This document shows positions 2,743-62,419 of a stretch of 64,000 bases of DNA, piece by piece. The position numbers and the translations under genes are program-made. The notes below the pieces were generated by a model. It did no database searches. It was not told the DNA's origin and saw nothing but the letters and a program-made list of their open reading frames with translations. The stretch lies in the IMG/VR virus record IMGVR_UViG_3300045988_140636. One strand, 5' to 3'. The first letter of the stretch is position 1; each line of letters opens with the position of its first letter. The stretch comes from a virus.

Positions 2743-3013
2743 TTATGGGAAGACCTAGAGCACTAAATGGCACAACTGGAGCTTCTTCTCTTAGAAGAAG
2801 AAGAGAGTTGAAGAGAAAAAAGAAGAAATAAGATTTGCCATGAGAAGAATAGTTATCTATAAATTGGAATTAATCTGTATAAAGTATATTCCAATAATTG
2901 TAGCTCTTCTTAGTTTATAGGATTCAGTATTCCTCTTACCGATAAGAAGTTAGTATTTGATACAACAGATTTAGAGAGTTTCAAAGAGATGTTAATTACT
3001 AAAGAATAATATT

Positions 3014-5364: not shown

Positions 5365-6214
5365 TTAACAAAAGAGAACCACTTGGGTTCTATCTTCCAA
5401 TTAGCTCCACAAAAAGCTACCAACCTTATGGTTCAATTGCTTGCCTATTACAGAGGTAAAACCCTTGACACATTCCTAAATCAGTTCCCAGTTAGAGAAT
5501 TTGAAGATGATACTGAGTATTACTGGGATGTAATAGGTTCTTCAAGGAGAAATATTCCTCTTGTAGAGGCAAGAGATGAGAATGGCACTCCTGTTACTGC
5601 AGGAAGCCCTAATGTTGGTGTTGGTACTACTCCTTTTTATTTAGTCTTCCCTGAAGACTGGTTTGCTGATGGAGAAGTAATTGTTGGTCATTTGAACCAA
5701 GTATATCCATTCAGAATACTAGGTGACCCCAGAATGGAGGGAACTAATGCGGTGTACAAAGTTGAGCTGATGGGAGGTAATACTGCAGGATGCCCTGCAG
5801 AGAGACTCCTTGCAGGGGAAAGATTCTCTGTAGATTTCGCTCCAGTAGAGAAGGAATTATCAAGGAAAGTAGGTGATGTTAGATTCACTAGTCCTGTTTC
5901 CATGAGAAATGAGTGGTCTACAATAAGAATTCAACATAAGGTTCCAGGTTCTGCTCTTACAAAGAAACTTGCTGTGGGCATACCTATGACTAAAGCAACT
6001 GAGAACGGAGGACTTACCAAGTCTATAGCTACAATGTGGATGCATAATGTAGATTGGGAAGTTGAACAACAATTCTCTGAATACAAAAACAATGCTCTTG
6101 CGTTTGGTACTTCTAACAGAAATTCCAATGGGGAGTATATGAATATCGGTAAATCAGGCAATGCGATTAAGACAGGTGCTGGTTTAAAGGCTCAAATAGG
6201 CCAGCTAGCTGCAT
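5365..6214 (+). CDS. capsid-sized structural protein (major capsid protein candidate), exon A; ORF-track start 5362 is a TTG at the intron 3' end, not a real start
   Basis: Long ORF ending with T of TAA at 6214 where a group I intron begins (t|aagcag); spliced product ~500 aa with its own terminator; true N-terminus unresolved (possibly internal ATG ~5428 or an upstream exon). Confidence 0.5.
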
Positions 6215-7099
6215 AAGCAGTCAAGAAATTAAAATTAACAAAACTAAGTCGGTGGAAGTCCTGAGATGGATAATACCGAGCTAACTATAGGAACTAAAAA
6301 GCTTATAGTAGTGTAGAGACTAGAGGTTGAAACTCTTTATATTATGACTAAATATGGTAGAATCTATATAATAAGAAATACTATAAATAATAAGGTTTAT
6401 ATAGGACAGACTAAAGTAAGCTTAAAATTGAGATTTCAAAATCATTTATCTGCTGCAAGAAATAACAAAGATTATGTTATAGGTAAAGCGATAAGAAAAT
6501 ATGGTGAAGAAAACTTTTATATAGAATTACTTGAAGAGTGTACTATAGAAGAACTTAATGATAGAGAAAAGTATTGGATTTCTTATTTTAATTCTACTGA
6601 TAATAAATTTGGTTATAATATGTCTATTGGGGGTAATGTTATTAGAACCACTAAAGAATTAGACAAGGACTTAATAATAAACATGTTTAATTCTGGGATT
6701 CCAGCATATAAAATAGCTAAAATTTTGCATACTGGAGTACCTAATATTACTAGTCTATTAAAGAGATCTAATATAATTTATGGCTTAGGTTTGCAAAAGA
6801 CTAATAAACTTGAGGAGTCTATGATAATAGATTTATATTTAGATGGTTATAGTACAGTAGACATAGGAAAAAAGTTTGGTAAAAATAAGAGTACGATAAG
6901 AAGAATACTCTTGAGGAATGATATTAAACTTAGAGCCTTTAAAGAGACTAAAAACTTGGGAAGAGATCTCCCAACATTACAATAGTAATGCTCCACGAGA
7001 GTTTTGCATTTAGATGTGGTAATCTAAATGAATATATAGTCCGAACTTCATAGTAATATGAAGAAATAGTGGATAAAGAGCCACTATGATAACATAATG
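6215..7099 (+). ncRNA. group I intron containing GIY-YIG homing endonuclease gene
   Basis: 5' part with ataccgagctaac and R-like gtgtagagactagagg (6305-6320); S element aatatatagtccgaac at 7025-7040; P9-like hairpins ttcatagtaatatgaa and atagtggataaagagccactat; ends gataacataatg| at 7099. Confidence 0.7.
6344..6985 (+). CDS. GIY-YIG homing endonuclease (I-TevI-like) with C-terminal DNA-binding region, intron-encoded
   Basis: YGRIYIIRNTINNKVYIGQT ... R ... E ... N motifs of GIY-YIG; located between intron core elements. Confidence 0.8.
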   Translation: MTKYGRIYIIRNTINNKVYIGQTKVSLKLRFQNHLSAARNNKDYVIGKAIRKYGEENFYIELLEECTIEELNDREKYWISYFNSTDNKFGYNMSIGGNVIRTTKELDKDLIINMFNSGIPAYKIAKILHTGVPNITSLLKRSNIIYGLGLQKTNKLEESMIIDLYLDGYSTVDIGKKFGKNKSTIRRILLRNDIKLRAFKETKNLGRDLPTLQ

Positions 7100-7600
7100 T
7101 ATTTGAGCAAATGGAAGTAGCTAATACTATGTATTATAATACTTTCAGCTTGAAACTTCTTGAAGATGCCTTGTATGAATTATCTGCATCCAAGTTGGAT
7201 TTTGGTGATAGATATTTCTTAATCAAAACAGGTGAAAGAGGAGCTATCCAATTCCATAAAGCTGTATTGAATGTAGTTTCAGGTTGGACCCAATTTGTAT
7301 TGGATAACAGTTCTACTAGAGTAGTAGAGAAAACCCAGTCTAGATTACATACAAATGCATTGTCTGCAGGATTCCAATTTGTCGAGTACAAAGCTCCCAA
7401 TGGAGTCAGAGTTAAAATTGATGTAGATCCTATGTATGATGATCCAGTTAGAAATAAGATACTTCATCCTCTTGGAGGAGTGGCTTATTCCTACAGATAT
7501 GATATTATGTATATCGGAACAATGGATCAGCCGAATATCTTTAAGTGTAAGATTAAAGGTGATACAGAATATAGAGGGTATCAATGGGGGTTAACGGCGT
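7100..7600 (+). CDS. capsid-sized structural protein, exon B (joins exon A in frame: ...GQLAA-L-FEQMEVANTMYY...)
   Basis: 3' splice after g7099; one nt from exon A (t6214) plus ta 7100-7101 gives Leu codon; exon ends at T7600 of TAA where next intron starts (t|aagcc). Confidence 0.55.
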
Positions 7601-8433
7601 AAGCCTTTACACATTTCTCAGCTCCCAAAGTTCTCCCCTAGAAACAGAAGTAGAGCTAGTAAAGAAAAACAAGGTTAATTGCTGGAAGTTCCTTAGAGCT
7701 TTCACTGCTTTTTAAACTTCAAACATTTAAATATGGAAGTTAAAGAATTATGGAAGCCTCTGCTAGAATATAAAGGCATAGAGGTAAGCTCAATTGGTAG
7801 AATAAGAAAAGCTGCTAATAAGAGTAGAAAAGAGAGAATCTTGACTGAATTTCCTAAAGATAGAGATGGTTACTACAGATGCTCTGTGCAAAGACTTGAT
7901 GGAACATGGACTTCTCAACCAGTCCATAGATTAGTTGCCAAAGCATTTATCCCTAGAACTAAGAATAGAGATATAGTTAATCATATAGATGGGAATAGAA
8001 CTAATAACAGAATAGAAAATCTTGAATGGGTAACTCCAAAAGAAAATGTCATTCATTCATTTAAATTTGGTTCAAGAAAAATTTGTAAACAAGTTCCCAA
8101 GAAGACTATTCTAACAGATTTCCAAGTTAATCAGATAGGGAAATTAAGAGAATTATATACAGTCAATCAAATAGCTAAACTTTTTAATATAGAATATCAG
8201 TCTCTCAAAAATATAATTCATAAAAAGAAACAATGTGAAAGATTGGATGATCAGCAGCCAAGCATATATACTAGTGTATATGAAGGTTCAGAGACTATCC
8301 CAGATGGGAGTAAGTAGTAAGTACTACTGAAACGCCTTGCTCACTTAATATTAAGTGATGAAGATATAGTCCGAACTCTAATGAAAGTTAGAGATAATAC
8401 ATGGAAACGATGTATTAGCAACATAAAAAAAAT
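7601..8433 (+). ncRNA. group I intron containing HNH homing endonuclease gene
   Basis: P-like ggttaattgctggaag at ~7674-7689; S element gaagatatagtccgaac at 8346-8365; hairpins tctaatgaaagttaga and aatacatggaaacgatgtatt; ends aacataaaaaaaatg| at 8433. Confidence 0.7.
7733..8317 (+). CDS. HNH homing endonuclease (NUMOD4-HNH_3-HTH architecture), intron-encoded
   Basis: [10 protein letters not shown]...[26 protein letters not shown] core; N-terminal SIGRIR NUMOD4-like; C-terminal helix-turn-helix-like repeats. Confidence 0.8.
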
Positions 8434-30632: not shown

Positions 30633-30664
30633 ACATTATGGTGAAATTTTTTATTAGGGAGAAA

Positions 30665-30702
30665 GCAAAAAAAAAGGAGGAATATTGTTCCTCCTTTTTT
30701 TA
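30665..30702. terminator. bidirectional intrinsic terminator between convergent genes (A-run, aggaggaa tattg ttcctcct, T-run)
   Basis: 8-bp stem flanked by aaaaaaaaa and ttttttt; sits between + gene end 30632 and - gene end 30731. Confidence 0.65.
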
Positions 30703-30730
30703 TCTACAATATGCTTCATTAGTAGACACT

Positions 30731-34774: not shown

Positions 34775-37630
34775 TTAACTTAATAAATTTATTGTACCAC
34801 AAATACTGTCACCATTTTCATCTCTATAATCTACATTAGGCTGAATAGACGTTACATCATTTTCTGAACCTGAGGGAATTTCAAGGGAAGAGCCATATAT
34901 ATCTTCATAAGCCTGTCTTAATGCATCCTCACTAAAGGCCTCTCTGTACATTTCAGAATAAGCCAAATCCTCTTCTGTCATTTGAGGAGTTTCATAAGAA
35001 GTAACTGCTTCATCAATAACAGCATTAGGATTATAACCTTTCTTGTTCTTATCAATTACAGAAGTCATTTCACTTGCTTCCTTACCATACTCATATTCAA
35101 TAAAGCTATTCTTGAATCCAAGTGGCTCAATCCTTCTATAGACGGCTACATTAGACTCTTCAACTCTATCTGCAGTTAATCTGTAATAAATATAGTTACC
35201 TTTGTTTCTTCTTGCAATGAAATCAAAGAAGTCATATACAGGACCATCAGGAGTATCTATTCTCTTCTTGATGATTTTTTTATCCCCAAAATTAGCATTT
35301 TCATCTATTACAAATGTAACTTCATCCTTAATCCCATTATCTTCACCTCTAAATAAAGTTGAAGCATCATCAGGAATTTCAGGAACAAGCTTTCTATTAT
35401 CAAGATGATTGTAGACATACTGTTCAACAAAGTCACTATAGTCATCCTCGGATGTAAGGAGACTTCTTAGTGTTTCAATATACTCTGGAACTGCACTTCT
35501 TACAGCTACAGGAGCTAAATGAATAAAGGTATTAGGACCAAATGCAAAGCCATTTCTGTAGAAGCTGTATCTGAATAAGTTAAGAGCAAGCTTTTGAGCT
35601 TCTGGGTTACTCATATATAATAGAGAAGTCCAGTCTCTCATATATCTTTCTCTTAGAGTGGGACTCAATTGACCAACATTCTTAAACACCACAGTGTCCA
35701 CAGGATTTGTATCATTTGCCCTTATCACTCTAAGTCTCTTAATAAACTCAAGGTCAGCTATATCCTCATTCTCTGCAACCACTTTCTTGAAGTAAGTTGG
35801 GAAATTATTGATGAAGTCCCTTCTCTTGTCAGCAGATGTAATCATCTTTGTAGGATTACCATTCTCATCTACTGAACTCCAATCAGGTTCTGCACCAAAG
35901 AAATCTGTCTTAGACATTATATAAGCAAGCAAATCATTGTAAATACTATTCATAGTCTTCACATTTAATCTACCTGTCTTTGTCATGTTTCTAAGAACAT
36001 CAACTACCTCATCAAATGACTCAGTGAATTGAGGGAAATACTTGCTTAACATTCTCTCTGATTGCTTCAATCCAAGTGTGTAGAATGCCTGTAAGAAAGG
36101 CAATTTACTTGCAAGCAATTGCTCTCTTATGTTGTCAATGTCATCATTAAGAGAAATACTGTCACTGATTACATCTGCCCCTACAAGTGGAAACTTGTCA
36201 TTCTCCTCCATATCTTTCAAGAAGTCTTGAACCTTTTGGATTTTGAGCTTTGTATCAGCAATAGTTGGACCTGCTGCACCACCTTGAGTATCAGACCTTG
36301 TAGCTTGCACAAGCTGACCAAGGCTATCAGCAGTTCTCATTATTCTCTTAAATAGGAATCCTACAGCAACTTGTTTCTTATAGAACTCAACCTTACTGTA
36401 ATCAGAAGTCTGATGGGCACTTGTGATGCCTGCCATTTCCTTTGCAATAAGGATGTTGTTGGCAAGGTCTTCAATTAGGAAGTCATTATTCTTATAGTTA
36501 TCATAAGTAACTTCTTCCATCATTGCAGCCTTCTTCTTATATTCTACAAGGATTTCATCAATCACAGTGTCCTTACCTTTACCTTCTCTACTCTCCCTAA
36601 AATAAGTCTGGGTAATATCCATAACAATAGGTTGTGTCATAAGCAAACCTATCTCAATAGGGTTATAACCTAGTCTTGAAAGAAGCATAGAAGCATCAGC
36701 AGTGAATGTATTTTGGTTAATACCAGCCAACACAGGATCTTTCACATTATCCACAGATGCAGCCAAGAAACCTGCATTATTCTTTGATATAAACTCTTTG
36801 TCTTCATTCATAATGTTATGTAAAGAAATAAGTCTCTTCCCATTCAATATAAATGAGCCATTCTCTACATCAAGGCCTAATTCAGTATGTTGCATTAAAG
36901 CATGATTAGCATTATGATTTGCATATATACCTATCAGTTTTGCACCAGTCATATTCTGTTGATGAAGTTGTACTTGAGTTCTTGGAGAAATAGGGTCAAG
37001 TCTTTTCTTAGTTTTTTCAGTAAGCCTATCAAGTTCTTTTAAATCCATTGAAAGTAACTTAGTAATAATCGAGCCATCAGAAATATTTAAGTCTCTTTTT
37101 AAATCTGATTCATAGCTCGAACTAAGAATACTAATAATTCTTGCAGCTTTCTTTTGATAATCAAAACCACCTGGGTTAAGAATCTTAGAGGCTGTATCTG
37201 TATTCGTTAGAACTCCCCACATCATATCTATCATCAAGTTGTTTCTTGCTTCAAGACTATTTTCTTGTGGAGTTTTATTAAAGTCATACTTTACTTTTCT
37301 AATCTTGTATGTATCAAGTCTGTACTTTTCCTTGTTTTCTTCAAACCATTTCTTAAACTCTACAGGTGCATTTGCAAAGTCCTCTAATAGATTTCCTGCC
37401 CTAAATAAGGTAGCTAATTCATCAAGTATTTCTTGCTCACCTTTAAAGTCCTGTTTTGCTCTTCTGAAGTCAAACTTATCTACCTTGAATTCAGGAAGCA
37501 TAATATACATCTTATCCACATCAAAGTCAGAACCTGACAGAGTGGTAATCTCAGCAGGAAGCATAATTGCAGAACCATTCTGTTGAGGTAAGAATCCTTT
37601 GATATACAAAGGAGCCATTGAGTACTTATC
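34775..37630 (-). CDS. virion-packaged RNA polymerase candidate (crAss-type, DFDVD motif), exon 2; precise 3' splice site within ~37625-37640 unresolved; ORF-track start 37696 is a GTG inside the intron
   Basis: Frame open from intron 3' region; SGSDFDVDKMY motif resembles DxDxD catalytic motif of crAss-like virion RNAP; S element and P9 hairpins lie at 37640-37716 so true exon starts downstream of annotated M. Confidence 0.5.
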   Translation of the reverse strand, partial: DKYSMAPLYIKGFLPQQNGSAIMLPAEITTLSGSDFDVDKMYIMLPEFKVDKFDFRRAKQDFKGEQEILDELATLFRAGNLLEDFANAPVEFKKWFEENKEKYRLDTYKIRKVKYDFNKTPQENSLEARNNLMIDMMWGVLTNTDTASKILNPGGFDYQKKAARIISILSSSYESDLKRDLNISDGSIITKLLSMDLKELDRLTEKTKKRLDPISPRTQVQLHQQNMTGAKLIGIYANHNANHALMQHTELGLDVENGSFILNGKRLISLHNIMNEDKEFISKNNAGFLAASVDNVKDPVLAGINQNTFTADASMLLSRLGYNPIEIGLLMTQPIVMDITQTYFRESREGKGKDTVIDEILVEYKKKAAMMEEVTYDNYKNNDFLIEDLANNILIAKEMAGITSAHQTSDYSKVEFYKKQVAVGFLFKRIMRTADSLGQLVQATRSDTQGGAAGPTIADTKLKIQKVQDFLKDMEENDKFPLVGADVISDSISLNDDIDNIREQLLASKLPFLQAFYTLGLKQSERMLSKYFPQFTESFDEVVDVLRNMTKTGRLNVKTMNSIYNDLLAYIMSKTDFFGAEPDWSSVDENGNPTKMITSADKRRDFINNFPTYFKKVVAENEDIADLEFIKRLRVIRANDTNPVDTVVFKNVGQLSPTLRERYMRDWTSLLYMSNPEAQKLALNLFRYSFYRNGFAFGPNTFIHLAPVAVRSAVPEYIETLRSLLTSEDDYSDFVEQYVYNHLDNRKLVPEIPDDASTLFRGEDNGIKDEVTFVIDENANFGDKKIIKKRIDTPDGPVYDFFDFIARRNKGNYIYYRLTADRVEESNVAVYRRIEPLGFKNSFIEYEYGKEASEMTSVIDKNKKGYNPNAVIDEAVTSYETPQMTEEDLAYSEMYREAFSEDALRQAYEDIYGSSLEIPSGSENDVTSIQPNVDYRDENGDSICGTINLLS

Positions 37631-38540
37631 TTCAGTTGGTTGTTTTGTTATCTTACAGATGTTTATTCTGTAATTCTTTATGTTTCCATAAAGCACGGAC
37701 TATATCTTCATCCTATAAGGATGTTGGGCACTCGTGGGTATATTATATTCTATTTTCATAGTTTCAATACCTAGTCTCTGAACCTTTTATAACCATTTAA
37801 GTTATAACTTGGCTGCTGATTGTCCCTACTTATTGAATTGTCACACACTTGCATATTCCCAGTAATAACCATATCTTTTCTGATGAGTTTTAATACCACT
37901 AATTATGTTAGCATCTTTCCTAATATTTCCTAATTGTCTGGCAGCTTCTCTAATAGATTGGTAAGTATTTATAATATTACCATCATTATCTATTTGATTA
38001 ATCTGTCTTTTATTAGGATTAGATTCTCTAAGTTTTAATCCTATTTTAACTGCTTTATTTCCATAACAGTTATTATAAGACTTAGTACACCATTCAAGAT
38101 TTTCTACAGAATTATTAGTCTTATTTTCATCTTTGTGGTTTATACATTCCAAATTGTTAGGATTTGGAATAAAAGTATCAGCTACTATTCTATGTACTGC
38201 AATAGTTCTTTTCTTGTTAGTGTCATCGTATAATTTCACTATAGGATAGCCACTACTATCAAGTACTGAGGATAAAGGTTTCAAAATGTTACCTTGTCTA
38301 TAACTAAATACTTTACCACTTTTAGTTACTTTATAGCTTGGATATTCTCCAAATCTACTTTTAATATTAAATAGTTCTTCTTCCATATAATGTTTTTGTG
38401 TAGATTTATATGTGCAAAGATACTATAAATATTTGAATTATGCAAATTTTGTATCAATAATCTAACAGGATGTTCCAGCAATTCACCCAATTTATTATTC
38501 TTTAGTATTACTACTAAAGCGAGTCCCAATCTTTCGATTA
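37631..38540 (-). ncRNA. group I intron with HNH homing endonuclease inserted between P and Q elements (boundaries approximate)
   Basis: Minus-strand reading: P gggtgaattgctggaac (38496-38480), Q caatcagcagcc (37822-37811), R ggttcagagactagg (~37785-37771), S gaagatatagtccgtg (37716-37701), P9 hairpin ctttatggaaacataaag; exon 1 ORF stop at 38538-38540. Confidence 0.65.
37841..38386 (-). CDS. HNH homing endonuclease (HNH_3/NUMOD), intron-encoded
   Basis: AVHRIVADTFIPNP...INHKDENKTNNSVENLEWCT HNH signature. Confidence 0.8.
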   Translation of the reverse strand: MEEELFNIKSRFGEYPSYKVTKSGKVFSYRQGNILKPLSSVLDSSGYPIVKLYDDTNKKRTIAVHRIVADTFIPNPNNLECINHKDENKTNNSVENLEWCTKSYNNCYGNKAVKIGLKLRESNPNKRQINQIDNDGNIINTYQSIREAARQLGNIRKDANIISGIKTHQKRYGYYWEYASV

Positions 38541-41500
38541 AACTCTATAACCAATCAACTTCCTAAGATCTTTAGGAAGTTTGGTAATATCAAGTTCATG
38601 AGTTCCTTCCTTCATAAGGGGTTCATAGAACTCTCTTGAATAAGCTGGCATGTAACATTCAAGATATTTAATTCTCTTGTTCTCACCTTCCCCTTCAAAT
38701 ACCACATGAAGTTCATCAGTTAAGCCATAATCAGATACCTGAATCAATGCTCCACCTCTAATCTTCTGTTTGGTGATTTTGCTCTTGATGATACTATTAA
38801 GAAGAGTCTGTACTCTTTGAGATTGTACAGGATCAAATAATGGAATATTGAACTGACCATTCTCATTAAGGGTACAGGCTCTGACCATATCAATTCCATA
38901 TCTCTGATTACCTCTAATCTCTTCAAGTAGTGCCTCCTCTATCTTCTTAGGGTCTTTGAATATATCATTCACATTCTTGAATGCTTGCAAGATATTCTCA
39001 GTATTGATTGCATTATACAGGTCCAGCCATTCCTGCTTGGTCATTTTCTTACCATCAACCTCAATGATAGCATCTGATGCAATATCAGCAGTAATCAACT
39101 TTCTAATCTGAGTACCTACAAGCTGCACAGCATCAATAGCATGTTCAGGAGTTGCAGTCTGAATACCATAATCTTCATAGCTTATTTTATGTACTACATT
39201 AGGATTCTCAATACCATTAGGCATAGTAGTATTCTTCAATACCTCCTTTACTTGCCTGAAGTCACTAACCTCGTTAAGGTCAATAACACCTTGCTTCCCG
39301 ACTTTAGTAGTAGATTCAAATTGAACTACATCAATATTGTTCTCTTCCATGAATTCATTAATAGCTTTAAGCTTGCTTGATTTACTAAGTGGACCAGCTA
39401 TTAACTCATGCATGGCAAGTAATAAGAATTCAGAGTTCTTATGCTGTACAGGAGTCTTAATACCAGTATGACCTTCTACACCACTCATGTTGCTAATTTG
39501 GGTATATACATAAGGTTTCTTAGTCTGCCAGATGATATTAAAGTCAGCAATGTTCCAAGTACCATTTTTGAAATTATTATATGCCTGCTCCATCTCATCT
39601 GTCCATTGGCCAGACATACCAAGTATTGCTCTATAGGAGCTTAAACTTCTATAAGCCTGTGCATCTGCAACATTAACTGCCTTAAACTTGTTAATAATAT
39701 TATCTCTATCCATCTTGGGCATTTCACCTTTCTTAACTCTCTCATCAAGAACTGTTTCAATATCACTCAGTACTGAAGATACAACCTCATCATCCTTCAA
39801 GTAGATAGTTCTTTCCCAATCTCTACCAATTCTTTCTCCCTTATAAGTAGCTTTGGTATTCATTCTAAGAGCTGGGGCATGAACCTCCTTATATCTCTTC
39901 TGAAAGTCCTCTACATTCTTATAGAAAGCTAAGTCGGTAGTAGTTAACTCAATAATTTGAGAAGTAGCTAATTTACTATTCCAGTAATACTCTCTTAATG
40001 CAGCTTTTGTATTATTCTTTACTATAAGGTTTTTGTTAATACTATCTGCTTCTTGTTTAGTAATATCTCCTCTTATAGACTTCTGATTTATTAAGTCTTT
40101 AATTTGTTGGAACAAATCTGTAGCAACTCTATCATCTACTGGATTATTGTTGTTATAATCTTTCAATAACAACTCCATATCAGTAGTCCATAAAGTAGTA
40201 CCAAGGATTTCTTTAGCTTTGATAAGAGACTTTGCAGTTCTTGAGTTCTGCTGTGATTGACCTGCAAAAGGTAAGTACTTATACTTTCCATTTGGTAACT
40301 CATCAAATAAACCAATTCTTGCCCAGTCTCTATATGCCTCTTCAAAGCCATTATCCATAACTTCTCTAAGAGTATCTCTAATGAATTCCTTTAACTCAGC
40401 ACCACTGCCTTCCCTGCTCAATCTACTCAATCTGTCAAGGAATGTTTCTCCATTATTATATCTAATGGAATTAAGTGCAGGTAAGAACTTAAACTCAGCT
40501 CCCCCTATACTCTTAATACTTCCATCCTTCTTCCTGGAAATATCATAGTTTGCTATAGGGGAGATGTTTGGATTATTATTCTGAAATTCCTCATCTCTTG
40601 CTCTGACAAGCATTATTCTGTCATATTCTTGATTGACTAAATCAGTTAGTTTATCAAGGATAATATCATCATAAGTCAGCTTGTTCCCATTCTCATCATA
40701 TTCAACTCCACTTACATATTTTCTGAATCTAATGAATTCAGCAGAAGGAGAATCTGAAAGAATAGGGACATGATACCAGGCCCACTTCACACTTGTTCTA
40801 CTATCTTCTGGGTCTCCCCAATATTCAGTAAGAAGTGCTAAGGTATAATCTAAGTCATCCCAGTTAGTGTAGTCCACTTTATCAGAGTTCAATACTACTT
40901 TATGATTTAGGCCTCTTCTCATTTCCTCAGAGTTAACCAGTTGCTCTAACCAGTCACTTCTCCATCTCCCATCTTTAAAGAACCACTCATATTGCTTAAA
41001 CTCAGTATTAATAAATTCTTCAAATCTCTTCCTATCTCCTCTTACATTCTTAAGCTGTTTAATTAACTTTCCAAGATAATTTGGGGTGACATGAGAGTAA
41101 TAAGACTTATCATTCTCTCTAACACTACTTTCAATAGCATCTTCAGTTACATTAGCCATCATATTTGCAATCGCACTATAAGCTGAACCAAATGTATTGA
41201 TTAAGTCTCCTCTCTTCTCTATTCCATCTTCTCCTGTTTCTGACTTTATTTCCCCCTTCTTGATTCCTTTGAATATAATATTCAATTGAGGTAGTAGGAC
41301 CATAATAGGGTCAGTAAACTTAGCTGTATCAGAAGTTCTAATATCAGTTAGTGCATTTCTTAATATAGAGGGATTGGCATCAATACCAATCATATTCAAC
41401 AGCTTTAGTATAGTTTTCCAGATCCTATCATCCTCAAGAAGTTCTAATCTTGCTTCAGTATCCAAATTAGAGAATTTATTGTTTAGAGTTTCGACCCACT

Positions 41501-42890
41501 TAAGACCTTTTTCAGCATTTTCAATATTTATGTCCCCATTCTTCTCATATACACTATCATTATCAAGTTGCATACCATTCTCATAGTTATCTCTCCAAGC
41601 ATCAAGAAGGTAATATACACCTTCAGGCTTGTTAATAGCAATGGTTTGCATCTTGAATGTACCATCAAGCATCGTCTTTTTCTTCTGGATCCAATAGGGT
41701 ACGAAATCCTTTCTGAAATCTTGATAGAATTGAGAAAATAGCGTATCATCCTCCTCAAGCAATTCTCTTACTTGAGTCACCCAAGGTTTATTCCTTTCGA
41801 GCCCCTGTATAAGAGGGATCATATCTTCAGAAGTAATCATATCTCTCAACTTGTCGATAAGAGTTGCATGAACATAATCAGCATCTAAATACCTTAGATT
41901 ACCCAAATCATCTTCCTTATACATTCCTTCATAGTCAAGCCTGGGTATTTCCCTAATAACTTTTCTAACTGCTTGAGATAAAGATTCATGGGAACTAACT
42001 TGTCTAAAGTTAGTCATCCAGCCATCTTTAAAAGTCTCTTCCTTATTATAATCATCAGCTTGCTCATCAAGCTCACTGTATCCTTCAGGAGTATCATCAT
42101 TTAAGTTAGCATCTTTAGGAGCACTATAGTTCAAGTCAATTCTAACTCCTTCTGTCATTACGAGTAATGTGCTAGCTTCTTCTGCCAAAGGTTTAAAGTT
42201 ATCAACAACTTTTCTATAAGCTTGTTCCTTATATACAGCTTTTCTTCTTGCAGCATCCAATTTTTGTTCATCAGAGAATCTTTCAGATTCATCTATAACA
42301 CCCTCATCAATTAATGTCTGCTCTCTTGCATTTATTGCCCCAAGTTCAATTTGTACTCTATTCTCTTCTGTATCGTTGATATAGGATTGAAATATATCCA
42401 ATACTCTGTCAAATAATCCAGCAGGGGTGTATTTCTTTATGGCATCAAATCTATTAAGGGAGCTTAACTCCATCTGTAATTGTAATCTTTCTTCATCAGA
42501 AGCTGTATCCATTCTCTTATTAAGAGAATCATTCATTTCCTGTAGTGCTTTATCTACCTCATTACTAAAGAATCTAGCAATAAGGCTTACTCTATCTCTT
42601 CTAGTTCTTGGGTCAAAGTCTAAATCAACCTTAGCTTGCTCTTCAATAGAAGAGATCTTAGGAGTGTCAAATGAAGTAGATAATGCTTCATCAAGCATTT
42701 CTATTGTATCTGCACTTCTGAGTTTAAATCTGAAATCATTAAGTTCCTTTGCAGAAGGATACTCTTCAATAGATTTATTATTCTCTTTTTGCCATAAAGC
42801 TACAAGGCCCTTTACAGATTCTTCTGTCTCACCTTGTAACTTCTCAGTTAAGTGCCTAATCTCTTTAGTTGCTACTAAACAATTATTCAT
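38541..42890 (-). CDS. virion-packaged RNA polymerase candidate, exon 1 (1450 aa); together with exon 2 ~2400 aa
   Basis: Long ORF ending ...KLIGYRV immediately before intron core; promoter-like TAccTTTG 30 nt upstream of ATG. Confidence 0.5.
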
Positions 42891-48791: not shown

Positions 48792-49109
48792 TTAATGAAC
48801 CCAGTAGGTTGGAAGAGGACCATTGTCATCAAGATATTCTCTATAGCTCTTTGGTAAGTCCTTTATTTTATAAGACTGATTAGTTCTGATATTTACTAGA
48901 ACATCTTCTCCCATAGAGGCTATAACATCGCCCTTAACCATGATCTTCTCTCCATTAAATTCAAAGTCTCCTATACATAATTTATGTCTGGACACGTCTA
49001 CATCCAACTTTACCCTGTGAACAAAATATGCTCCAGCTTTAACCATTATATCATATAGTACTTTAGCTATATCTTCCGCTATCTCTTCTGGAGCTTCACA
49101 GTTGATTTC
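48792..49109 (-). CDS. family A DNA polymerase, exon 2 (begins with E of motif C: EINCEAPEEIA...; ends ...TYWVH*); ORF-track start 49112 is a GTG at the intron 3' end
   Basis: Alignment to T7/Klenow segment after HDE (EIQVGCRTEEIAQVV / ELVFEVHKDDVDAVAK); intron ends ...taacatatgtg| at 49110. Confidence 0.65.
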   Translation of the reverse strand, partial: EINCEAPEEIAEDIAKVLYDIMVKAGAYFVHRVKLDVDVSRHKLCIGDFEFNGEKIMVKGDVIASMGEDVLVNIRTNQSYKIKDLPKSYREYLDDNGPLPTYWVH

Positions 49110-49973
49110 CACATATGTTACGAATATGTCGATTCCACATATTCTCTTTAGATTTCTCTAAAGGTCGGACTATATCTTATAAAAATCTCCACATATAGGC
49201 TAGTTGCCCATTGGTTAGATTTCTATCAGTGCTTTTCAGCTGCTCTTGCAGCTTACTCCATTTCTGGATAGTCTCTGAACTCCATAATTTATAAGAGTAA
49301 CAATTAATAGGATATTTAGCTAATATAGAATGAATAATATAGGCTCCCTCATATTTATTTATTCCTAAATAATATAATGGTCTGCTATGATTATTATCTA
49401 CTCTTACTTTAGCTTTTACTCCTATACTCTCAAAGAAAGGAATAAATACATTTTCTTGAATATTCAGAGAAAATTTCTGAGTATTAAGGTTGTAATATAA
49501 GTCCCTCTTATGAAGGCTCCCATCATCATAGAACCACAATGCTAAACCTAACTCATCAAGATTACTCACTACTTCTTCTATAGGGAGTTCCTTGATTAAT
49601 TTAAGTGAAAACCAAGCTCCTCCATAATAAGTATATATGGGAGTTTGGTTATAACCATTGCTGTCTACATGATTTATTTTGCCTTTACCAATTAATTGTT
49701 TTTTATACTCTAAGTATTCCTTATGCTTACAATTGGATGTATATATAGTACTACCACTATTAGTAGTAGATATGCAACCATCCCCTAATATAGCAGTAAG
49801 AAAAACCTGAGTTTGCTCTCTTGTAAAATCATAAAGCTGCTTATTGCCTATTTCTCTTAAGTTACTTAAAATCATATTTAATACTTTTACTAGTTTATTA
49901 TTACAATAATTCAGTGATTAAATCTTTAAGGGTTTCAAGCAATTAACACTGTTTTACTACAACAAAATTACTT
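49110..49973 (-). ncRNA. group I intron with LAGLIDADG homing endonuclease, inserted in DNA polymerase motif C
   Basis: S element aagatatagtccgacc (49177-49160 on minus strand), P-like gtgttaattgcttgaaaccc near 5' end, P9 hairpins; 5' splice after t (tacgat|aag), 3' splice after g. Confidence 0.65.
49177..49875 (-). CDS. LAGLIDADG homing endonuclease (double-motif), intron-encoded
   Basis: Two LAGLIDADG-like motifs: FLTAILGDGCI and LALWFYDDGSL. Confidence 0.75.
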   Translation of the reverse strand: MILSNLREIGNKQLYDFTREQTQVFLTAILGDGCISTTNSGSTIYTSNCKHKEYLEYKKQLIGKGKINHVDSNGYNQTPIYTYYGGAWFSLKLIKELPIEEVVSNLDELGLALWFYDDGSLHKRDLYYNLNTQKFSLNIQENVFIPFFESIGVKAKVRVDNNHSRPLYYLGINKYEGAYIIHSILAKYPINCYSYKLWSSETIQKWSKLQEQLKSTDRNLTNGQLAYMWRFL

Positions 49974-58596: not shown

Positions 58597-59171
58597 TTAA
58601 AGTCAAAACATTCTTGCGTTAGCAAATTTTGAAACTCTTCCAATAATCCAAGAGCAATTTGGGCTTCTCTGGCAGATCTGAAAGCAGCGAAGTTTTTGTA
58701 ATCCTTGATACATTCTTTTTTCAGGTTATAAACTTTCATACTAATTATATCTGCCATGTATATGTTAGGGCTATTACTAATATGATCTTCATAATTGGCA
58801 TCTAGATCGATAGCTATTTCCCTTAAGAACATAGTATATAGTGAAGCTGGACAAATATTAAGTAAGGTAAAAAGGAATTCTATAGAATTCTCTTCATTTA
58901 GACTGGATTTTTGGCATATTTTCCTAAGATAATACTCTACATCTTTTTCAGATTTAAGGGGTCCTTCTTCTAGATCTTCTCTCTCTACTATTAAACCTTT
59001 TTTAATTAGTTTACTTATGCTATTAGGAAGTACAATAAATTCTTGAATTACAGAAAAGTAATCTCCCCTACGTACTCTTCTTATAACGTCACCCATTTTT
59101 ACTTCTTCACCTGCTTTAGTGTAATACCTTTTCTTATTCATATTTTTCTGTTTAATGTCAATATTCTTCAT
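58593..59171 (-). CDS. hypothetical protein (192 aa)
   Basis: ORF. Confidence 0.3.
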   Translation of the reverse strand: MKNIDIKQKNMNKKRYYTKAGEEVKMGDVIRRVRRGDYFSVIQEFIVLPNSISKLIKKGLIVEREDLEEGPLKSEKDVEYYLRKICQKSSLNEENSIEFLFTLLNICPASLYTMFLREIAIDLDANYEDHISNSPNIYMADIISMKVYNLKKECIKDYKNFAAFRSAREAQIALGLLEEFQNLLTQECFDFK

Positions 59172-59649
59172 ACCATTTTATGGAATACCCATAAATATCT
59201 CTTAATTTTTTATCTATTTCATCAAATAGATAATGAGGCATCTTTGTCCCACTCCTTGCAAAATATGCAGGGTGTTCAATCTTCAAAACATGATTGAAAT
59301 TCTTATTGATATACGGATCAAATGTTCCAGCTTGTTTACCGAATAATACATATACAATAGAACACAAATTTTCCGAAAGATTCTTTAATAATTTAGATAT
59401 GAATGGTCTCCATAACATAACATGGGAGCCTATTTTATTCATCTCCACAGTAAGAGCAGAGTTAATCATTAATATACCCTGCTTAGCCCAGTTCTCTAAA
59501 GTTTGGTCAAAGATAATGCTATCATGTGGAATTTCCAAATTTATCACTGCTTCTTTTAATATTTTTAGAGAAGGCGACAAATCTTCTTCTGAAACTTCTT
59601 TTCTATTTCCAAACAGTACTCCAGTAGCTACTCCCTTTTGTGGATAAGG
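59158..59649 (-). CDS. ung: uracil-DNA glycosylase, exon 2 (starts PYPQKGVATGV..., contains HVLKIEHPAYFARSG C-terminal motif); ORF-track start 59652 is a TTG at intron 3' end
   Basis: Aligns with UDG from PYHGP... through HPSPLS motif; intron ends ggtaacaaattg| at 59650. Confidence 0.75.
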   Translation of the reverse strand, partial: PYPQKGVATGVLFGNRKEVSEEDLSPSLKILKEAVINLEIPHDSIIFDQTLENWAKQGILMINSALTVEMNKIGSHVMLWRPFISKLLKNLSENLCSIVYVLFGKQAGTFDPYINKNFNHVLKIEHPAYFARSGTKMPHYLFDEIDKKLRDIYGYSIKWYEEY

Positions 59650-60579
59650 CAATTTGTTACCCCAAAGGCTCTTTATCCTTTGGTTCTATATATTACTATA
59701 TAGTTCGGACTATATCTTCATTGTTTCCAATGCAGGGCACTCGTGTCAGGTTTATTATTTGAGCTATTCACCTGTTAGTCTCTGAACCTTCTACATACTT
59801 TTATGCTCTTCTGTAGCTTGGCTGCTGATTGACTCATTAAGTTGTTCCAGCAATTCACCCTGTTTATCCAGAACCCTTCTTTTACTATAAGTAATTAGTT
59901 TATATTGCATGGATGGAATAATATAATCTTTAATTAGTTCTACAAACTTAGGAAAATCCTTAGCTTGTAGATACATACTATTATCATGTTTGCCTACAGT
60001 AAAATGTAAGTCAAATTTATTTAATAATATGTTAGCTAACAAAAGCTGTTCTTCAAGAGTAAATGAACAAGTAGATAAGGTACATGAATTTTTAGTTACA
60101 TAACCATCATCCATATACCATATAGCCAAACCTAAAGCATCTATATCTTTTACAAATTCTTCAAAGATTCTTTTATGTCCATTAGAGTCATAATATTTTA
60201 ATCTTATATTTGTAAAAATAGGATGTAATCTAGATTTAAATCTATATCCAACTAATTCATGTAAATATCTTTTATTATTTACATGATATTCAACTATAGG
60301 AGATACTAAGTTATATTTATTTAGTATCTCCCATTTATACTCAAGATATTCTTTTTGTTTTTCAGAGTGCGCTATACTAAGACACATATTTTTAGCTGTT
60401 TTTCCTACTGAACAAAAACATCCATCACCTAACAAACTTCCTATAAGAAGTTGTCTTAGATCATTTTCTACTTTAATTTCCTTGTAATTCTTCATACCAT
60501 TAAGAATTTGGCACAAAGATAAGGTATTTGACCTAATATTGCAATATTCTAGTTAAATTATTTATAGATTATTACCAAA
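59650..60579 (-). ncRNA. group I intron with LAGLIDADG homing endonuclease, splitting the UDG GQD|PY motif
   Basis: Minus-strand P gggtgaattgctggaac (59849-59833), Q caatcagcagcc (59830-59819), R ggttcagagactaac (~59798-59784), S gaagatatagtccgaact (59721-59704), P9 hairpins; 5' splice after caggat|. Confidence 0.7.
59791..60516 (-). CDS. LAGLIDADG homing endonuclease (double-motif), intron-encoded; C-terminus overlaps intron P/Q elements
   Basis: LLIGSLLGDGCF and LAIWYMDDGYV motifs. Confidence 0.75.
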   Translation of the reverse strand: MCQILNGMKNYKEIKVENDLRQLLIGSLLGDGCFCSVGKTAKNMCLSIAHSEKQKEYLEYKWEILNKYNLVSPIVEYHVNNKRYLHELVGYRFKSRLHPIFTNIRLKYYDSNGHKRIFEEFVKDIDALGLAIWYMDDGYVTKNSCTLSTCSFTLEEQLLLANILLNKFDLHFTVGKHDNSMYLQAKDFPKFVELIKDYIIPSMQYKLITYSKRRVLDKQGELLEQLNESISSQATEEHKSM

Positions 60580-60765
60580 ATCCTGCCCTAGAAACACTAC
60601 CTTCAAATCCTCGAATGGACATAACTTAAAAGCCCTAAACACATCAGTTTGCTTAGGGCATACAGGCTTTATCATATACTCCTTAGATAACATATTCATT
60701 ACATGATTAAGCTCTACTTTATCAATGACCTTCATCCAACCTCCAAAATATTCTTCTGTCGTCAT
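60580..60765 (-). CDS. ung: uracil-DNA glycosylase, exon 1 (MTTEEYFGGW...KVVFLGQD)
   Basis: UDG N-terminal region ending in water-activating GQD motif; stop of ORF lies 6 codons inside intron. Confidence 0.75.
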
Positions 60766-61472
60766 TCAAGTGCTAGTAAATCGTCTATATTATTTTCTAA
60801 AAAATTATTTAGAGATTCATTTATATCTTCGCCTTGAGGTGGAGGAATAGTCTTTATGAACTCTTCAGCATTATCTATTTTAACTTCCACTTGGTTTAGG
60901 TATCTATAATCTACCAATTCCGAAAGGAATGCAGGAATAACCCTTTTAATTATATGTTTCTCTAATATACCTGGTCTATCTAATAAGAATAGCGTCGGAG
61001 ACACATGTACTACTATCTTTCTAGTAGGAGTTAACCTGTGATCCTTCAATACGCAACAGGAGTTAACCATTAGTAACATATTCATGCATCTATCTAATAT
61101 TATTCCTCTACATCCATAGTACACCTGATCTTTACAAGACACTTTACTCAAGGAGAATGAATCAAATAAGGCTCTAATTAATGAGTTACTTCCTAATGCA
61201 GTATTCTCTTTTGAGTTTAAGAACACAGGAGTAACTATTCTACATTTTCTTGACAACAGCTCATCGAACTCACTCCCAGATAGTTTAGAGAATTGGCTCC
61301 TCAGTATAGTGGGAATCTCTATATTCATATCCTCTCTTAGAGTAGCTTCAACAAGAATTCTATACGGGTTTGTATTGTTACTTCCATATAGTGAAGGGAC
61401 AGATACTGAGGGTCTACTAATTGATATTGCTTTGTATAAGTCCTCTATATATTTTTCTGAAAAAATCATCAT
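60762..61472 (-). CDS. hypothetical protein (236 aa) translationally coupled to E1-like gene; candidate accessory (E2-like?) component, unproven
   Basis: ATGA-type 4-nt overlap with upstream E1-like ORF; several conserved-looking Cys. Confidence 0.3.
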   Translation of the reverse strand: MMIFSEKYIEDLYKAISISRPSVSVPSLYGSNNTNPYRILVEATLREDMNIEIPTILRSQFSKLSGSEFDELLSRKCRIVTPVFLNSKENTALGSNSLIRALFDSFSLSKVSCKDQVYYGCRGIILDRCMNMLLMVNSCCVLKDHRLTPTRKIVVHVSPTLFLLDRPGILEKHIIKRVIPAFLSELVDYRYLNQVEVKIDNAEEFIKTIPPPQGEDINESLNNFLENNIDDLLALE

Positions 61473-62419
61473 GATATAGTTTTAAAATACATAGTTTCTG
61501 CATTATATTCAGTATAGAACGGAAGGTCCCTGTCTATAAGTGGATTACATTTATTTGCTATAAAATTGACAAACAAATTAACTATAACAGATCCAATCAT
61601 ATTAGCCATAAAAGTAGTTTGTTTATAACTGCATACAGTAGGATCGGCCTCAAAGTCTGAGAACAAATAAGGCTCATATCTTCGTATATTATCCATATCG
61701 TCTCCTTTTATACAGAACACTTGAAATTCTTCTGCTGCCAATCTGCCATCTATAAACAGACATTCTTCTCGCCTCTCTTTGGGTAATTCTAACACCCTAT
61801 CAGTCCAATTCTTAAAAGCATCCTTTCTAGCTTTCATATTATCGAACCCACAAATAGTTATTCCAGTTATAGCTGAAGAGGTATCCAGTTTTTTAGTTAG
61901 AGCTGAAACACTATGATAGTCTGAATAATTTTCTATCATATCTGCTATAGCATCTGCCTTATAAAGACCTATTTGAGACTTACTATATAACTGTCCGGAC
62001 AAATTAACTGTTTCTACTTTATCTGGGTCATATAAAGTTAGTGACCTGACATCCATTCTAGATAACATAAATACTACATAGCTTCCTATCCCTCCTAATC
62101 CAGCTACAGTAATATTTTGCTTAAGTATCTTATCAAACCAAAGGGCAGAGTTAAATCTAGATGTCCCTTCTTTTATTAATAAGGTCTTAGAATTTTCAGG
62201 AATTTTATCTATAACCAAATCCTGATCTATTAGTGCAGATATTAACATAGAATGTTCTTCTTCATCAAGATAAAATTTACTACCCTCTACAGTAATTTCA
62301 CTAACAAATTCTCCATCCATAATAACTTGCCTAATACTGGAAATAGCCTTTCCTTTGATTAACTCTATTAAGTCCCCTACAGCTAGTGATTCATTAGGGC
62401 TTTGATCTAATCTTTTCAT
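61469..62419 (-). CDS. E1-like (ThiF/MoeB/UBA-family) adenylyltransferase with ~95 aa N-terminal extra domain
   Basis: Rossmann GxGxxG (VAGLGGIGSYVV), DPDKVETVNLSGQ, crossover-region ICGFDNMKARK (DN..R) motifs. Confidence 0.65.
   Translation of the reverse strand: MKRLDQSPNESLAVGDLIELIKGKAISSIRQVIMDGEFVSEITVEGSKFYLDEEEHSMLISALIDQDLVIDKIPENSKTLLIKEGTSRFNSALWFDKILKQNITVAGLGGIGSYVVFMLSRMDVRSLTLYDPDKVETVNLSGQLYSKSQIGLYKADAIADMIENYSDYHSVSALTKKLDTSSAITGITICGFDNMKARKDAFKNWTDRVLELPKERREECLFIDGRLAAEEFQVFCIKGDDMDNIRRYEPYLFSDFEADPTVCSYKQTTFMANMIGSVIVNLFVNFIANKCNPLIDRDLPFYTEYNAETMYFKTIS

What the first reader, a model, noticed from the sequence alone, without database searches (positions are those of the whole stretch)
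59158..60765. Uracil-DNA glycosylase split inside its GQD|PY water-activating motif by a LAGLIDADG-bearing group I intron
Exon 1 (65 aa) ends ...KVVFLGQD and exon 2 begins PYPQKGVATGVLFGN..., reconstituting a ~228 aa UDG with the HPAYFARSG C-terminal motif. All four intron core elements plus two P9 hairpins are present and homologous to the RNAP-gene intron. Here the HEG lies upstream of P rather than between P and Q, so related introns have acquired different endonucleases at different positions. The insertion site is one of the most conserved tetrapeptides of the enzyme, typical of homing-endonuclease targets.
Basis: partly seen in the sequence, partly recalled or inferred. Interest (0 to 1): 0.6.

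Follow-up and report, generated by a model that had tools for sequence, protein, structure and literature searches.

The report
Mobile group I intron splitting phage UDG
A crAss-like gut phage has its uracil-DNA glycosylase gene cut in two, in the middle of the catalytic motif, by a 930-base self-splicing group I intron that carries its own LAGLIDADG homing endonuclease; it is a well-formed but ordinary selfish element in a phage group already known to be rich in introns.

Summary
On the minus strand, exon 1 (60765-60580, 62 aa, not 65) ends GQD. A 930-nt insert follows (60579-59650). Exon 2 (59649-59158, 163 aa) starts PYPQ. The joined protein is 225 aa, not ~228.

- **Insertion site.** Thirty related crAss-like phage loci encode the same 225-aa family-1 UDG uninterrupted, and DNA homology breaks exactly at GAT|CCT.
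- **Ribozyme.** The insert holds a group I core (Rfam RF00028, 80.9 bits). P3-P9.1 are backed by many compensatory changes. A U-G pair sits at the 5' splice site, the last intron base is G, and the guide sequence pairs with both exons.
- **Endonuclease.** The intron encodes an I-SceI-like double-motif LAGLIDADG protein.
- **Spread.** The same intron sits at the same site in 21 other phage contigs and is more conserved than its exons. Copies carry full, truncated or expanded ORFs, which is the pattern expected of homing.
- **New detail.** The ORF lies in the P1 loop, there is no P2, and its last 29 codons read through the guide sequence and P3-P6.

No splicing or cleavage was tested. Verdict: a new member of a known kind, of modest interest. 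One side observation is unexplained: three related contigs end the intron in A instead of G.

The parts
60580..60765 (-). UDG exon 1: 62 codons, ATG 60765 to the last exon base U 60580; ends ...VVFLGQD
   Evidence: Translation. Collinear with residues 1-62 of uninterrupted UDGs of cr128_1 and 29 other loci.
59650..60579 (-). Group I intron, 930 nt. It starts UUUGG after an exon U and ends ...AAAUUG, so the terminal base is G at 59650.
   Evidence: Homology with intronless alleles breaks exactly at GAT|CCT. Rfam RF00028 scores 80.9 bits. Covariation.
59158..59649 (-). UDG exon 2: 163 codons plus stop; begins PYPQKGV and contains the LMINSALT and HPAYFARSG motifs
   Evidence: Translation. The megablast match to cr128_1 begins exactly at 59649. 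PDB UNG alignments.
59791..60495 (-). Intron-encoded double-motif LAGLIDADG homing endonuclease: 234 aa from ATG 60495 (an upstream TTG at 60516 would give 241 aa), stop UAG 59793-59791. Motifs LLIGSLLGDG and LAIWYMDDG.
   Evidence: Pfam PF03161 E 2.7e-33. I-SceI E 3e-13 and 6x1j E 2e-15. ATG start conserved in 7 of 9 aligned copies.
60577..60585 (-). P1 5' strand: exon CAGGAU (60585-60580) plus intron UUU (60579-60577); U 60580 forms the U-G wobble at the 5' splice site
   Evidence: Pairs listed. 100% paired in all copies. All 22 intron-bearing alleles read CAGGAT, while 22 of 30 intronless alleles end in GAC.
59869..59878 (-). Internal guide sequence 5'-AAGG|GUUCUG-3'. GUUCUG pairs with exon 1 (P1) and AAGG pairs with the first four bases of exon 2, CCUU 59649-59646 (P10). 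It lies about 690 nt downstream of the 5' splice site, so the ORF is in the P1 loop. P3 follows after 6 nt, so there is no P2.
   Evidence: One-sided U-to-C changes keep the pairing. In the PhiCrAssBcn18 helicase intron, which has the same layout, exon CGUGAU pairs with GUCACG at the same position.
59650..59862 (-). Ribozyme core and 3' domain (5' strand / 3' strand): P3 59862-58 / 59737-33; P4 59852-47 / 59828-23; P5 59842-39 / 59835-32; P6 59821-20 / 59788-87; P6a 59816-12 / 59795-91; P7 59780-76 / 59712-08; P7.1 59774-70 / 59751-47; P8 59732-28 / 59723-19; P9 59703-697 / 59692-686; P9.1 59683-77 / 59668-62
   Evidence: Helix coordinates. 99.6% of cells paired and 14 pairs with compensatory change, against 0-1 in the slid controls. 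RNAalifold on 14 distinct copies recovers the same helices, with 25 of 53 pairs compensatory.
59791..59877 (-). Overlap of the endonuclease ORF (last 29 codons) with the ribozyme (guide sequence, P3, P4, P5, P6/P6a); the stop codon lies in the 3' strand of P6a
   Evidence: Homology to solved LAGLIDADG enzymes ends at residue 201. A 2-nt deletion in L026/L027 replaces the tail with SKKGSV* while the RNA helices stay intact.
60514..60521 (-). TATCTTTG, a match to the Bacteroidetes -7 promoter box TAnnTTTG, 18 nt before the endonuclease ATG. It is only a candidate internal promoter (speculative).
   Evidence: Conserved in 7 of 9 copies. The same CTTATCTTTGTAC lies upstream of the LAGLIDADG ORF of the PhiCrAssBcn18 helicase intron. 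The motif is only weakly enriched upstream of ORFs in the window, and the longer motif is not enriched.

Best explanation
This is a mobile, self-splicing group I intron of the phage IA type (it has a P7.1 hairpin). It is inserted between the Asp and Pro codons of the GQDPY water-activating motif of a family-1 uracil-DNA glycosylase gene in a crAss-like phage. The nearest deposited relative is cr128_1 (Steigviridae).

**Inferred mechanism.** The gene is transcribed through the intron. The guide sequence AAGG|GUUCUG, located just 5' of P3, pairs with the end of exon 1 (CAGGAU, with a U-G wobble at the splice site) and with the start of exon 2 (CCUU). An external guanosine cuts after U 60580. The terminal G 59650 then occupies the G site in P7 and the exons are joined. 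This restores GQD-PY and a 225-aa active UDG.

**The endonuclease.** An I-SceI-like monomeric LAGLIDADG protein is encoded inside the roughly 690-nt loop of P1. Its reading frame runs on through the guide sequence and P3-P6 until the first stop. In mixed infections it would cut intronless UDG alleles at or near GGGCAGGAT|CCTTATCC. Repair from the intron-bearing genome would then copy the intron and adjacent exon bases into the cut allele.

**Shown here:** the exact insertion site, the ribozyme fold with covariation, the splice-site base identities, the family of the ORF, the patchy distribution, and intron conservation higher than exon conservation.

**Inferred only:** actual splicing, endonuclease activity and target, and how the ORF is expressed.
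For: **Insertion site.**
- 30 of 38 related UDG loci are uninterrupted 225-aa genes. The spliced product is 88% identical to cr128_1 UDG.
- DNA homology ends exactly at GGAT and resumes at CCT.

**Ribozyme.**
- Rfam RF00028 scores 80.9 bits against a gathering score of 50.
- The hand-drawn P1-P10 structure is 99.6% paired over 9 copies, with 14 compensatory pairs. Slid controls give 28-45% paired and 0-1 compensatory pairs.
- RNAalifold on 14 distinct cores independently recovers P3-P9.1 and the guide/exon-2 pairing, with 25 of 53 pairs compensatory.

**Splice-site rules.**
- The exon ends in U opposite a G, and the intron ends in G.
- All 22 intron-bearing alleles keep CAGGAT|CCTTA or CCCTA. 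Intronless alleles vary synonymously; 22 of 30 end in GAC.

**Guide sequence position.** In the PhiCrAssBcn18 helicase intron, which has the same layout, the guide sequence at the same position is complementary to a different exon (CGUGAU/GUCACG).

**Endonuclease.** Pfam PF03161 E 2.7e-33 and I-SceI E 3e-13, with both acidic motifs present.

**Mobility.**
- 21 further IMG/VR loci carry this intron, all at this site, in UDG alleles down to 47% aa identity.
- The intron is always more conserved than the exons. Examples: 99.0% against 85.1% for L003-L008, and 86.3% against 73.6% for window-L030.
- Copies with truncated ORFs exist (introns of 583 and 500 nt), as does an expanded 1685-nt copy.
Against: - No RNA or biochemical data exist, so splicing and cleavage are untested.
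- P1 and P10 never vary among UDG copies. Their support rests on one-sided changes, on the contrast with intronless alleles, and on a single related intron in another gene.
- A 9-bp P1 closing a roughly 690-nt loop, with no P2, is a demanding fold.
- Ribosomes reading the last 29 codons of the ORF would unfold P1-P6, so the timing of translation and splicing is unclear.
- Three related contigs carry the intron with a terminal A instead of G. This shows that not every copy obeys the textbook rule.
Confidence: 0.9

Rival explanations
1. The UDG gene is dead. A free-standing homing endonuclease gene, or a decayed intron that no longer splices, has inserted into it, and the two halves are pseudogene remnants.
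For: Nothing here shows splicing. UDG is not universal in crAss-like phages (PMC7886860), so its loss could be tolerated. Three related contigs lack the terminal G.
Against: - Both exons are intact and keep every family-1 motif.
- In the window the ribozyme is complete, with a U-G wobble at the 5' site, a terminal G, and P10.
- The helices are maintained by compensatory substitutions across 14 diverged copies.
- Intron-bearing alleles hold the exon bases needed for P1 and P10 fixed, while intronless alleles drift at those positions.
Confidence: 0.06
2. These are two separate genes. Exon 2 is translated on its own from TTG 59652, and exon 1 encodes an independent small protein (a naturally split UDG).
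For: A mechanical ORF caller lists a 164-aa ORF starting at TTG 59652 and a 67-aa ORF covering exon 1.
Against: - The TTG is the conserved 3' end of the intron (UUG).
- Intronless relatives have no start codon there and encode one continuous protein.
- The exon-2 product would lack the catalytic Asp of GQD.
- The sequence between the halves is a high-scoring group I ribozyme.
Confidence: 0.02
3. The intron splices but is now fixed and immobile. Its endonuclease would act only as a maturase, or be inactive, and the patchy distribution would come from repeated loss.
For: Some copies have truncated ORFs (L060, L061) or lack the usual ATG (L030, L031). LAGLIDADG proteins of other introns can act as maturases (established knowledge).
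Against: - The intron is markedly more similar between phages than the exons around it, which loss alone does not explain.
- Most copies keep a full ORF with both catalytic motifs.
- The flanking exon bases are uniform in all intron-bearing alleles, as co-conversion would produce.
Confidence: 0.1

Closest known systems
Phage group I introns of subgroup IA with homing endonucleases (T4 td/nrdB/nrdD, Bacillus SPO1 DNA polymerase, Staphylococcus Twort/K, Streptococcus thermophilus lysin, cyanophage Pf-WMP3 polymerase, PMC3428280)
   Same: - The conserved P/Q/R/S core is the same. The core gives blastn matches of about 67-80% identity in the listed rows to introns of Clostridium, Proteus, Flavobacterium and Streptococcus phages, and Staphylococcus phages account for 54 of the 105 matching records.
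- There is an extra hairpin between P7 and P3'.
- The insertion lies in a highly conserved motif of a DNA-metabolism gene.
- The intron encodes its own endonuclease.
- Its distribution among close relatives is patchy.
   Different: - The host gene is UDG. I found no report of an intron in a UDG gene, and no deposited phage genome has a close copy of this endonuclease (best 34% identity).
- The ORF lies in the P1 loop and P2 is absent. In the T4 introns the ORFs loop out of P6 or P9 (from memory).
- Only one hairpin (P7.1) is evident where IA2 introns have P7.1 and P7.2.
Introns of crAss-like phages described by Yutin et al. 2021 (PMC7886860)
   Same: The phage order is the same. That paper reports group I introns with LAGLIDADG, HNH and other endonucleases in core genes (MCP, PolB, primase, RNAP). 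This window also carries related introns in the RNAP and capsid genes.
   Different: [quoted passage not shown] By its nearest relative, this window belongs to Steigviridae.
PhiCrAssBcn18 replicative-helicase intron (OQ221553, L039)
   Same: - The architecture is the same: 5' splice site, then LAGLIDADG ORF (34% identical), then guide sequence directly before P3, with no P2.
- The P9.1 and 3' tail are similar.
- The same CTTATCTTTGTAC motif precedes the ORF.
   Different: It has a different host gene and a different guide sequence. Its core is more diverged; Rfam finds nothing at E 0.01 or below. In GenBank the ORF is annotated only as a hypothetical protein.
I-SceI and related monomeric LAGLIDADG homing endonucleases (PDB 1r7m, 6x1j)
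   Same: It is a single chain of similar size with two LAGLIDADG motifs. Alignment covers residues 2-201 (E 3e-13 and 2e-15).
   Different: It is phage-encoded rather than mitochondrial. It has a 31-aa C-terminal tail encoded by ribozyme sequence. Its target site is unknown.

Membership tests
Group I intron (Rfam RF00028) | Conserved catalytic core P3-P8 with the P/Q/R/S elements, scoring above the curated threshold | tested here: met
   80.9 bits against a gathering score of 50, E 5.4e-19
Group I intron (Rfam RF00028) | Helices supported by compensatory base changes among homologues | tested here: met
   14 compensatory pairs in 9 copies, with slid controls at 0-1; 25 of 53 pairs compensatory in 14 copies by RNAalifold
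Group I intron (Rfam RF00028) | 5' splice site follows a U that pairs with a G of the internal guide sequence (P1) | tested here: met
   Exon CAGGAU pairs with GUUCUG, with U 60580 opposite G. U at -1 occurs in 22 of 22 intron-bearing alleles against 8 of 30 intronless alleles. The helicase intron covaries.
Group I intron (Rfam RF00028) | Intron ends in G (the terminal guanosine) | tested here: met
   G 59650 in the window and in 18 related loci. Three related contigs end in A instead.
Group I intron (Rfam RF00028) | Removal restores an intact, collinear host gene | tested here: met
   The joined 225-aa protein aligns without gaps to uninterrupted UDGs and to solved UNGs across the junction
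Group I intron (Rfam RF00028) | Guanosine-dependent self-splicing | not testable with these tools
   Needs in vitro transcription and splicing, or RNA data
Subgroup IA2 (phage type) | Extra P7.1 and P7.2 helices between P7 and P3'; P2 present | tested here: inconclusive
   One covarying hairpin (P7.1, 59774-59747) is present. No second hairpin and no P2 were found. The core is similar to IA-type phage introns by blastn.
LAGLIDADG homing endonuclease (Pfam PF03161, I-SceI-like) | Two LAGLIDADG motifs, each with a conserved acidic residue, in one chain | tested here: met
   LLIGSLLGDG and LAIWYMDDG; PF03161 E 2.7e-33; aligned to I-SceI and 6x1j
LAGLIDADG homing endonuclease (Pfam PF03161, I-SceI-like) | Site-specific cleavage of the intronless allele | not testable with these tools
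   Only indirect support: patchy distribution, the intron more conserved than the exons, and uniform flanking exon bases
Family-1 uracil-DNA glycosylase (UNG) | GQDPY water-activating loop with the catalytic Asp, Asn of the uracil pocket, and His of the HPSPLS-type loop | tested here: met
   GQDPYP is restored by splicing; LMINSALT and HPAYFARSG are present. Best PDB matches are 3tr7 (E 1e-25) and E. coli UNG (E 1e-23). Pfam PF03167. The loop variants (YP for YH, AYF for SPL) are shared by all crAss relatives.

The most novel reading that the evidence does not exclude
This intron and the PhiCrAssBcn18 helicase intron may define a distinct architectural class of crAss-phage group I introns.
- They lack P2, and a LAGLIDADG gene sits inside the P1 loop.
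- The reading frame runs through the guide sequence and P3-P6, so translation of the endonuclease and folding of the ribozyme would be mutually exclusive on one RNA.
- The endonuclease would be expressed from its own Bacteroides-type promoter inside the intron.

Within the UDG lineage, a sub-clade has replaced the universally conserved terminal G by A while still maintaining the ribozyme fold by compensatory changes. That would mean natural splicing, or some other selected ribozyme activity, without a terminal G.
Probability: 0.12. Interest if true: 0.6.

Novelty: new member of a known kind. Interest (0 to 1): 0.3.

Why it matters
- **Annotation.** Gene callers split this UDG into a 67-aa and a 164-aa ORF and miss the intron. 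The same applies to at least 21 public crAss-like contigs.
- **Host-gene list.** UDG is added to the list of phage genes colonised by homing introns. It is a clean natural series: intronless alleles, a full endonuclease, a decayed endonuclease, and an expanded intron. This series could be used to study the homing cycle in the most abundant human gut phages.
- **Possible tool.** The endonuclease is a new I-SceI-like enzyme with a predictable target of about 20 bp, and might be usable as a rare-cutting tool.

None of this changes current understanding of group I introns.

Tried and rejected
1. **Guide sequence near the 5' end.** I looked for a conventional P1 hairpin followed by P2 holding the ORF. 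No G-containing complement of CAGGAU exists in the first 90 nt. That region is not conserved (L030/L031 differ completely), and its local hairpins do not covary. Rejected in favour of the invariant GGGUUCUG next to P3.
2. **First structure count.** It used one bracket type and mis-nested P3 and P7, which form a pseudoknot. I repeated it with separate brackets.
3. **Rfam's alignment of the 5' part of its model.** It falls inside the ORF (59932-59880) and is spurious. The same happens for the RNAP intron, whose true P3/P4 5' strands lie upstream of the HNH ORF.
4. **Rfam on the PhiCrAssBcn18 and cr116_1 loci.** Nothing was found at E 0.01 or below. I read the helicase intron by eye instead.
5. 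**The motif TTATCTTTGTA as a recurrent promoter.** It is not enriched in the window (5 found, 4.75 expected). The shorter TAnnTTTG is only weakly enriched upstream of ORFs. It is kept only as a speculation.
6. **Literature searches.** Searches for an intron in a UDG gene and for natural introns lacking the terminal G found nothing specific. One search failed on syntax.
7. **Scripts.** Two earlier scripts stopped on wrong search offsets.
Full report
**What is in the sequence.**

The gene lies on the minus strand. From ATG 60765 the frame reads 62 codons ending ...KVVFLGQD at T 60580, then runs into FGNNL and a stop. From 59649 the frame reads PYPQKGVATGVLFGN...HPAYFARSG...WYEEY and stops at 59158, giving 163 codons. 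The 930 bases between them (60579-59650) start UUUGG and end AAAUUG.

Its lengths (65 aa and ~228 aa) should be 62 aa and 225 aa.

**Is it a split UDG?**

The joined 225-aa protein matches Pfam UDG (E 1e-11). It also matches solved family-1 UNGs, and the alignment runs unbroken across the junction: VVFLGQDPYPQKGVATGVLF against [20 protein letters not shown], with 3tr7 at E 1e-25 and E. coli UNG at E 1e-23.

The window is a crAss-like phage. Its nearest deposited genome, cr128_1 (Steigviridae), matches the window from exactly 59649 onward. That genome has an uninterrupted 225-aa UDG that is 88% identical to the joined product, in the same gene neighbourhood. DNA homology with cr128_1 and with bajarodcaudo virus breaks precisely after GGAT.

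Of 38 related loci, 30 have the two halves directly abutting. Eight have an insert of 934-950 nt at the same point.

**Is the insert a group I intron?**

Rfam RF00028 scores 80.9 bits (gathering score 50, E 5e-19) at 59686-59932. I drew the structure by hand and located the helices:
- P1: exon CAGGAU plus intron UUU, paired with AGGGUUCUG.
- P10: AAGG paired with exon-2 CCUU.
- P3, P4, P5, P6/P6a and P7.
- A P7.1 hairpin between P7 and P3', which is the mark of subgroup IA.
- P8 with a GAAA loop and P9 with a GUAA loop.
- P9.1.

On nine copies this structure is 99.6% paired, with 14 pairs showing compensatory change. Sliding the partners by 1-3 columns gives 28-45% paired and 0-1 compensatory pairs. 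On 14 distinct cores, RNAalifold recovers the same helices without guidance, and 25 of 53 pairs are compensatory.

The exon ends in U opposite a G, and the intron ends in G.

All 22 intron-bearing alleles read CAGGAT|CCTTA (one reads CCCTA). The 30 intronless alleles vary freely at the synonymous positions: 22 end in GAC, and many have CAA or CCA. This fits a requirement for P1 and P10, co-conversion during homing, or both.

**Where the ORF sits.**

The ORF (ATG 60495 to stop 59791, 234 aa) is a double-motif LAGLIDADG protein. It matches PF03161 at E 2.7e-33, I-SceI at E 3e-13 and 6x1j at E 2e-15.

The only sequence able to pair with the exon end lies about 690 nt downstream, six bases before P3, and it is invariant in all copies. 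The ORF therefore occupies the loop of P1, and there is no P2.

A related intron provides an independent test. The replicative helicase intron of PhiCrAssBcn18 has the same layout, and its guide sequence at the same position (GUCACG) is complementary to its own exon end (CGUGAU).

The last 29 codons of the ORF overlap the guide sequence and P3-P6, and the stop codon lies in P6a. Homology to solved enzymes ends at residue 201. A 2-nt deletion in L026/L027 changes the tail but not the helices. The tail is therefore conserved as RNA, not as protein.

An HMM of the UDG intron core hits the RNAP-gene intron in two pieces: 38495-38467 (P3/P4 5' strands) and 37844-37645 (P4 3' strand onward). The two pieces are separated by an HNH ORF at 38386-37841. 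That intron has a normal P1 hairpin (GAAA loop) and a P2 (GUAA loop).

**Mobility.**

A scan of IMG/VR with the endonuclease found 21 loci with 60-94% identical copies. Every one lies in a UDG gene at this site, in UDG alleles as far as 47% identical to the window's.

The intron is always more conserved than its exons:

| Pair | Intron identity | Exon identity |
|---|---|---|
| L003-L008 | 99.0% | 85.1% |
| window-L030 | 86.3% | 73.6% |
| L041-L045 | 91.3% | 74.4% |

Two copies have lost most of the ORF (introns of 583 and 500 nt), and one is expanded to 1685 nt. This is the expected picture of a homing cycle. Cleavage itself is untested.

**Comparison with what is known.**

Group I introns with LAGLIDADG, HNH and other endonucleases are already described in crAss-like phages (PMC7886860). 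[quoted passage not shown]

I found no report of an intron in a UDG gene. No deposited phage genome has a close relative of this endonuclease; the best match is 34% identical.

By blastn the core resembles introns of Clostridium, Staphylococcus, Flavobacterium, Proteus and Streptococcus phages, and of the prototype crAssphage.

**Verdict.**

It is a new member of a known kind, of modest interest.

**Unexplained side observation.**

Three related contigs carry this intron with a terminal A instead of G. Their P7 is unchanged, their UDG exons are intact, and compensatory changes between them maintain the fold.

Noticed in passing
L026/L053 (IMGVR_UViG_3300045988_008424), L027/L054 (_008409), L052 (_044059); 3' intron end, e.g. 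L053:2326-2346: Three related contigs carry the same UDG intron, but the last intron base is A (...AACAATATTA|CCTTATCC and ...AACAAAATTA|CCTTATCC) instead of the otherwise universal G. The P7 G-binding pair is unchanged and the UDG exons are intact. L052 and L053 differ by compensatory changes in P5, P6a, P8 and P9.1, so the fold still appears to be under selection. The nearest upstream G is 12 nt away in both, which is in frame. No explanation was found.
   Followed up: partly
window 37645-38537 (-): A group I intron lies in the giant RNA polymerase gene, between ORFs 38538-42890 and 34775-37696. It has a normal P1 and P2, and an HNH/NUMOD endonuclease ORF (38386-37841) inserted between the P4 5' and P4 3' strands. 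Rfam scores it 54.4 bits, but the 5' part of that alignment is misplaced inside the ORF.
   Followed up: partly
window 5232-8411 (+): The major capsid gene region is fragmented: 7111-7602 covers positions 290-450 of the 496-position Crass_capsid profile. It holds a GIY-YIG ORF (6344-6985) and an HNH ORF (7733-8317). Matches to the 3' half or to the middle of the UDG-intron core occur at 5252-5364, 6982-7096 and 8248-8392 (Rfam 43.1 bits at 8181-8393, below threshold). This suggests at least three more introns.
   Followed up: partly
window 49083-49966 (-): There are weak matches to the UDG-intron core HMM at 49280-49146 (E 0.03) and 49956-49915 (E 0.4). They may mark a further, diverged intron, or they may be chance.
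   Followed up: no
window 30660-30705: AAAAAAAAGGAGGAATATTGTTCCTCCTTTTTTT is a perfect hairpin flanked by an A run and a T run, most simply a two-way intrinsic terminator. It explains the sub-threshold Rfam hits there (PrrB_RsmZ and Plastid-psbA-2 on both strands).
   Followed up: partly
L039:1628-2836 (Bacteroides phage PhiCrAssBcn18, OQ221553): The replicative DNA helicase of this cultured phage is annotated as two CDSs with a 'hypothetical protein' between them. It is actually split by a group I intron carrying a LAGLIDADG ORF in the P1 loop. Exon 1 ends ...ACTCGTGAT and exon 2 starts GCAAATTTAGTA. Rfam does not detect the core.
   Followed up: partly
window 61469-62419 (-): A ThiF/E1-like protein (PF00899, E 6e-18) is encoded two genes upstream of the UDG. 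It is conserved in the same position in cr128_1 and in bajarodcaudo virus, where it is annotated as an E1 enzyme family protein.
   Followed up: no
L056:1417-3101 (IMGVR_UViG_3300032007_000037): This copy of the UDG intron is 1685 nt long. Its core is split into two pieces (2115-2215 and 2990-3096) by about 770 extra nt, so it may hold a second insertion or a nested element. Another core-like match lies upstream at 718-863.
   Followed up: no
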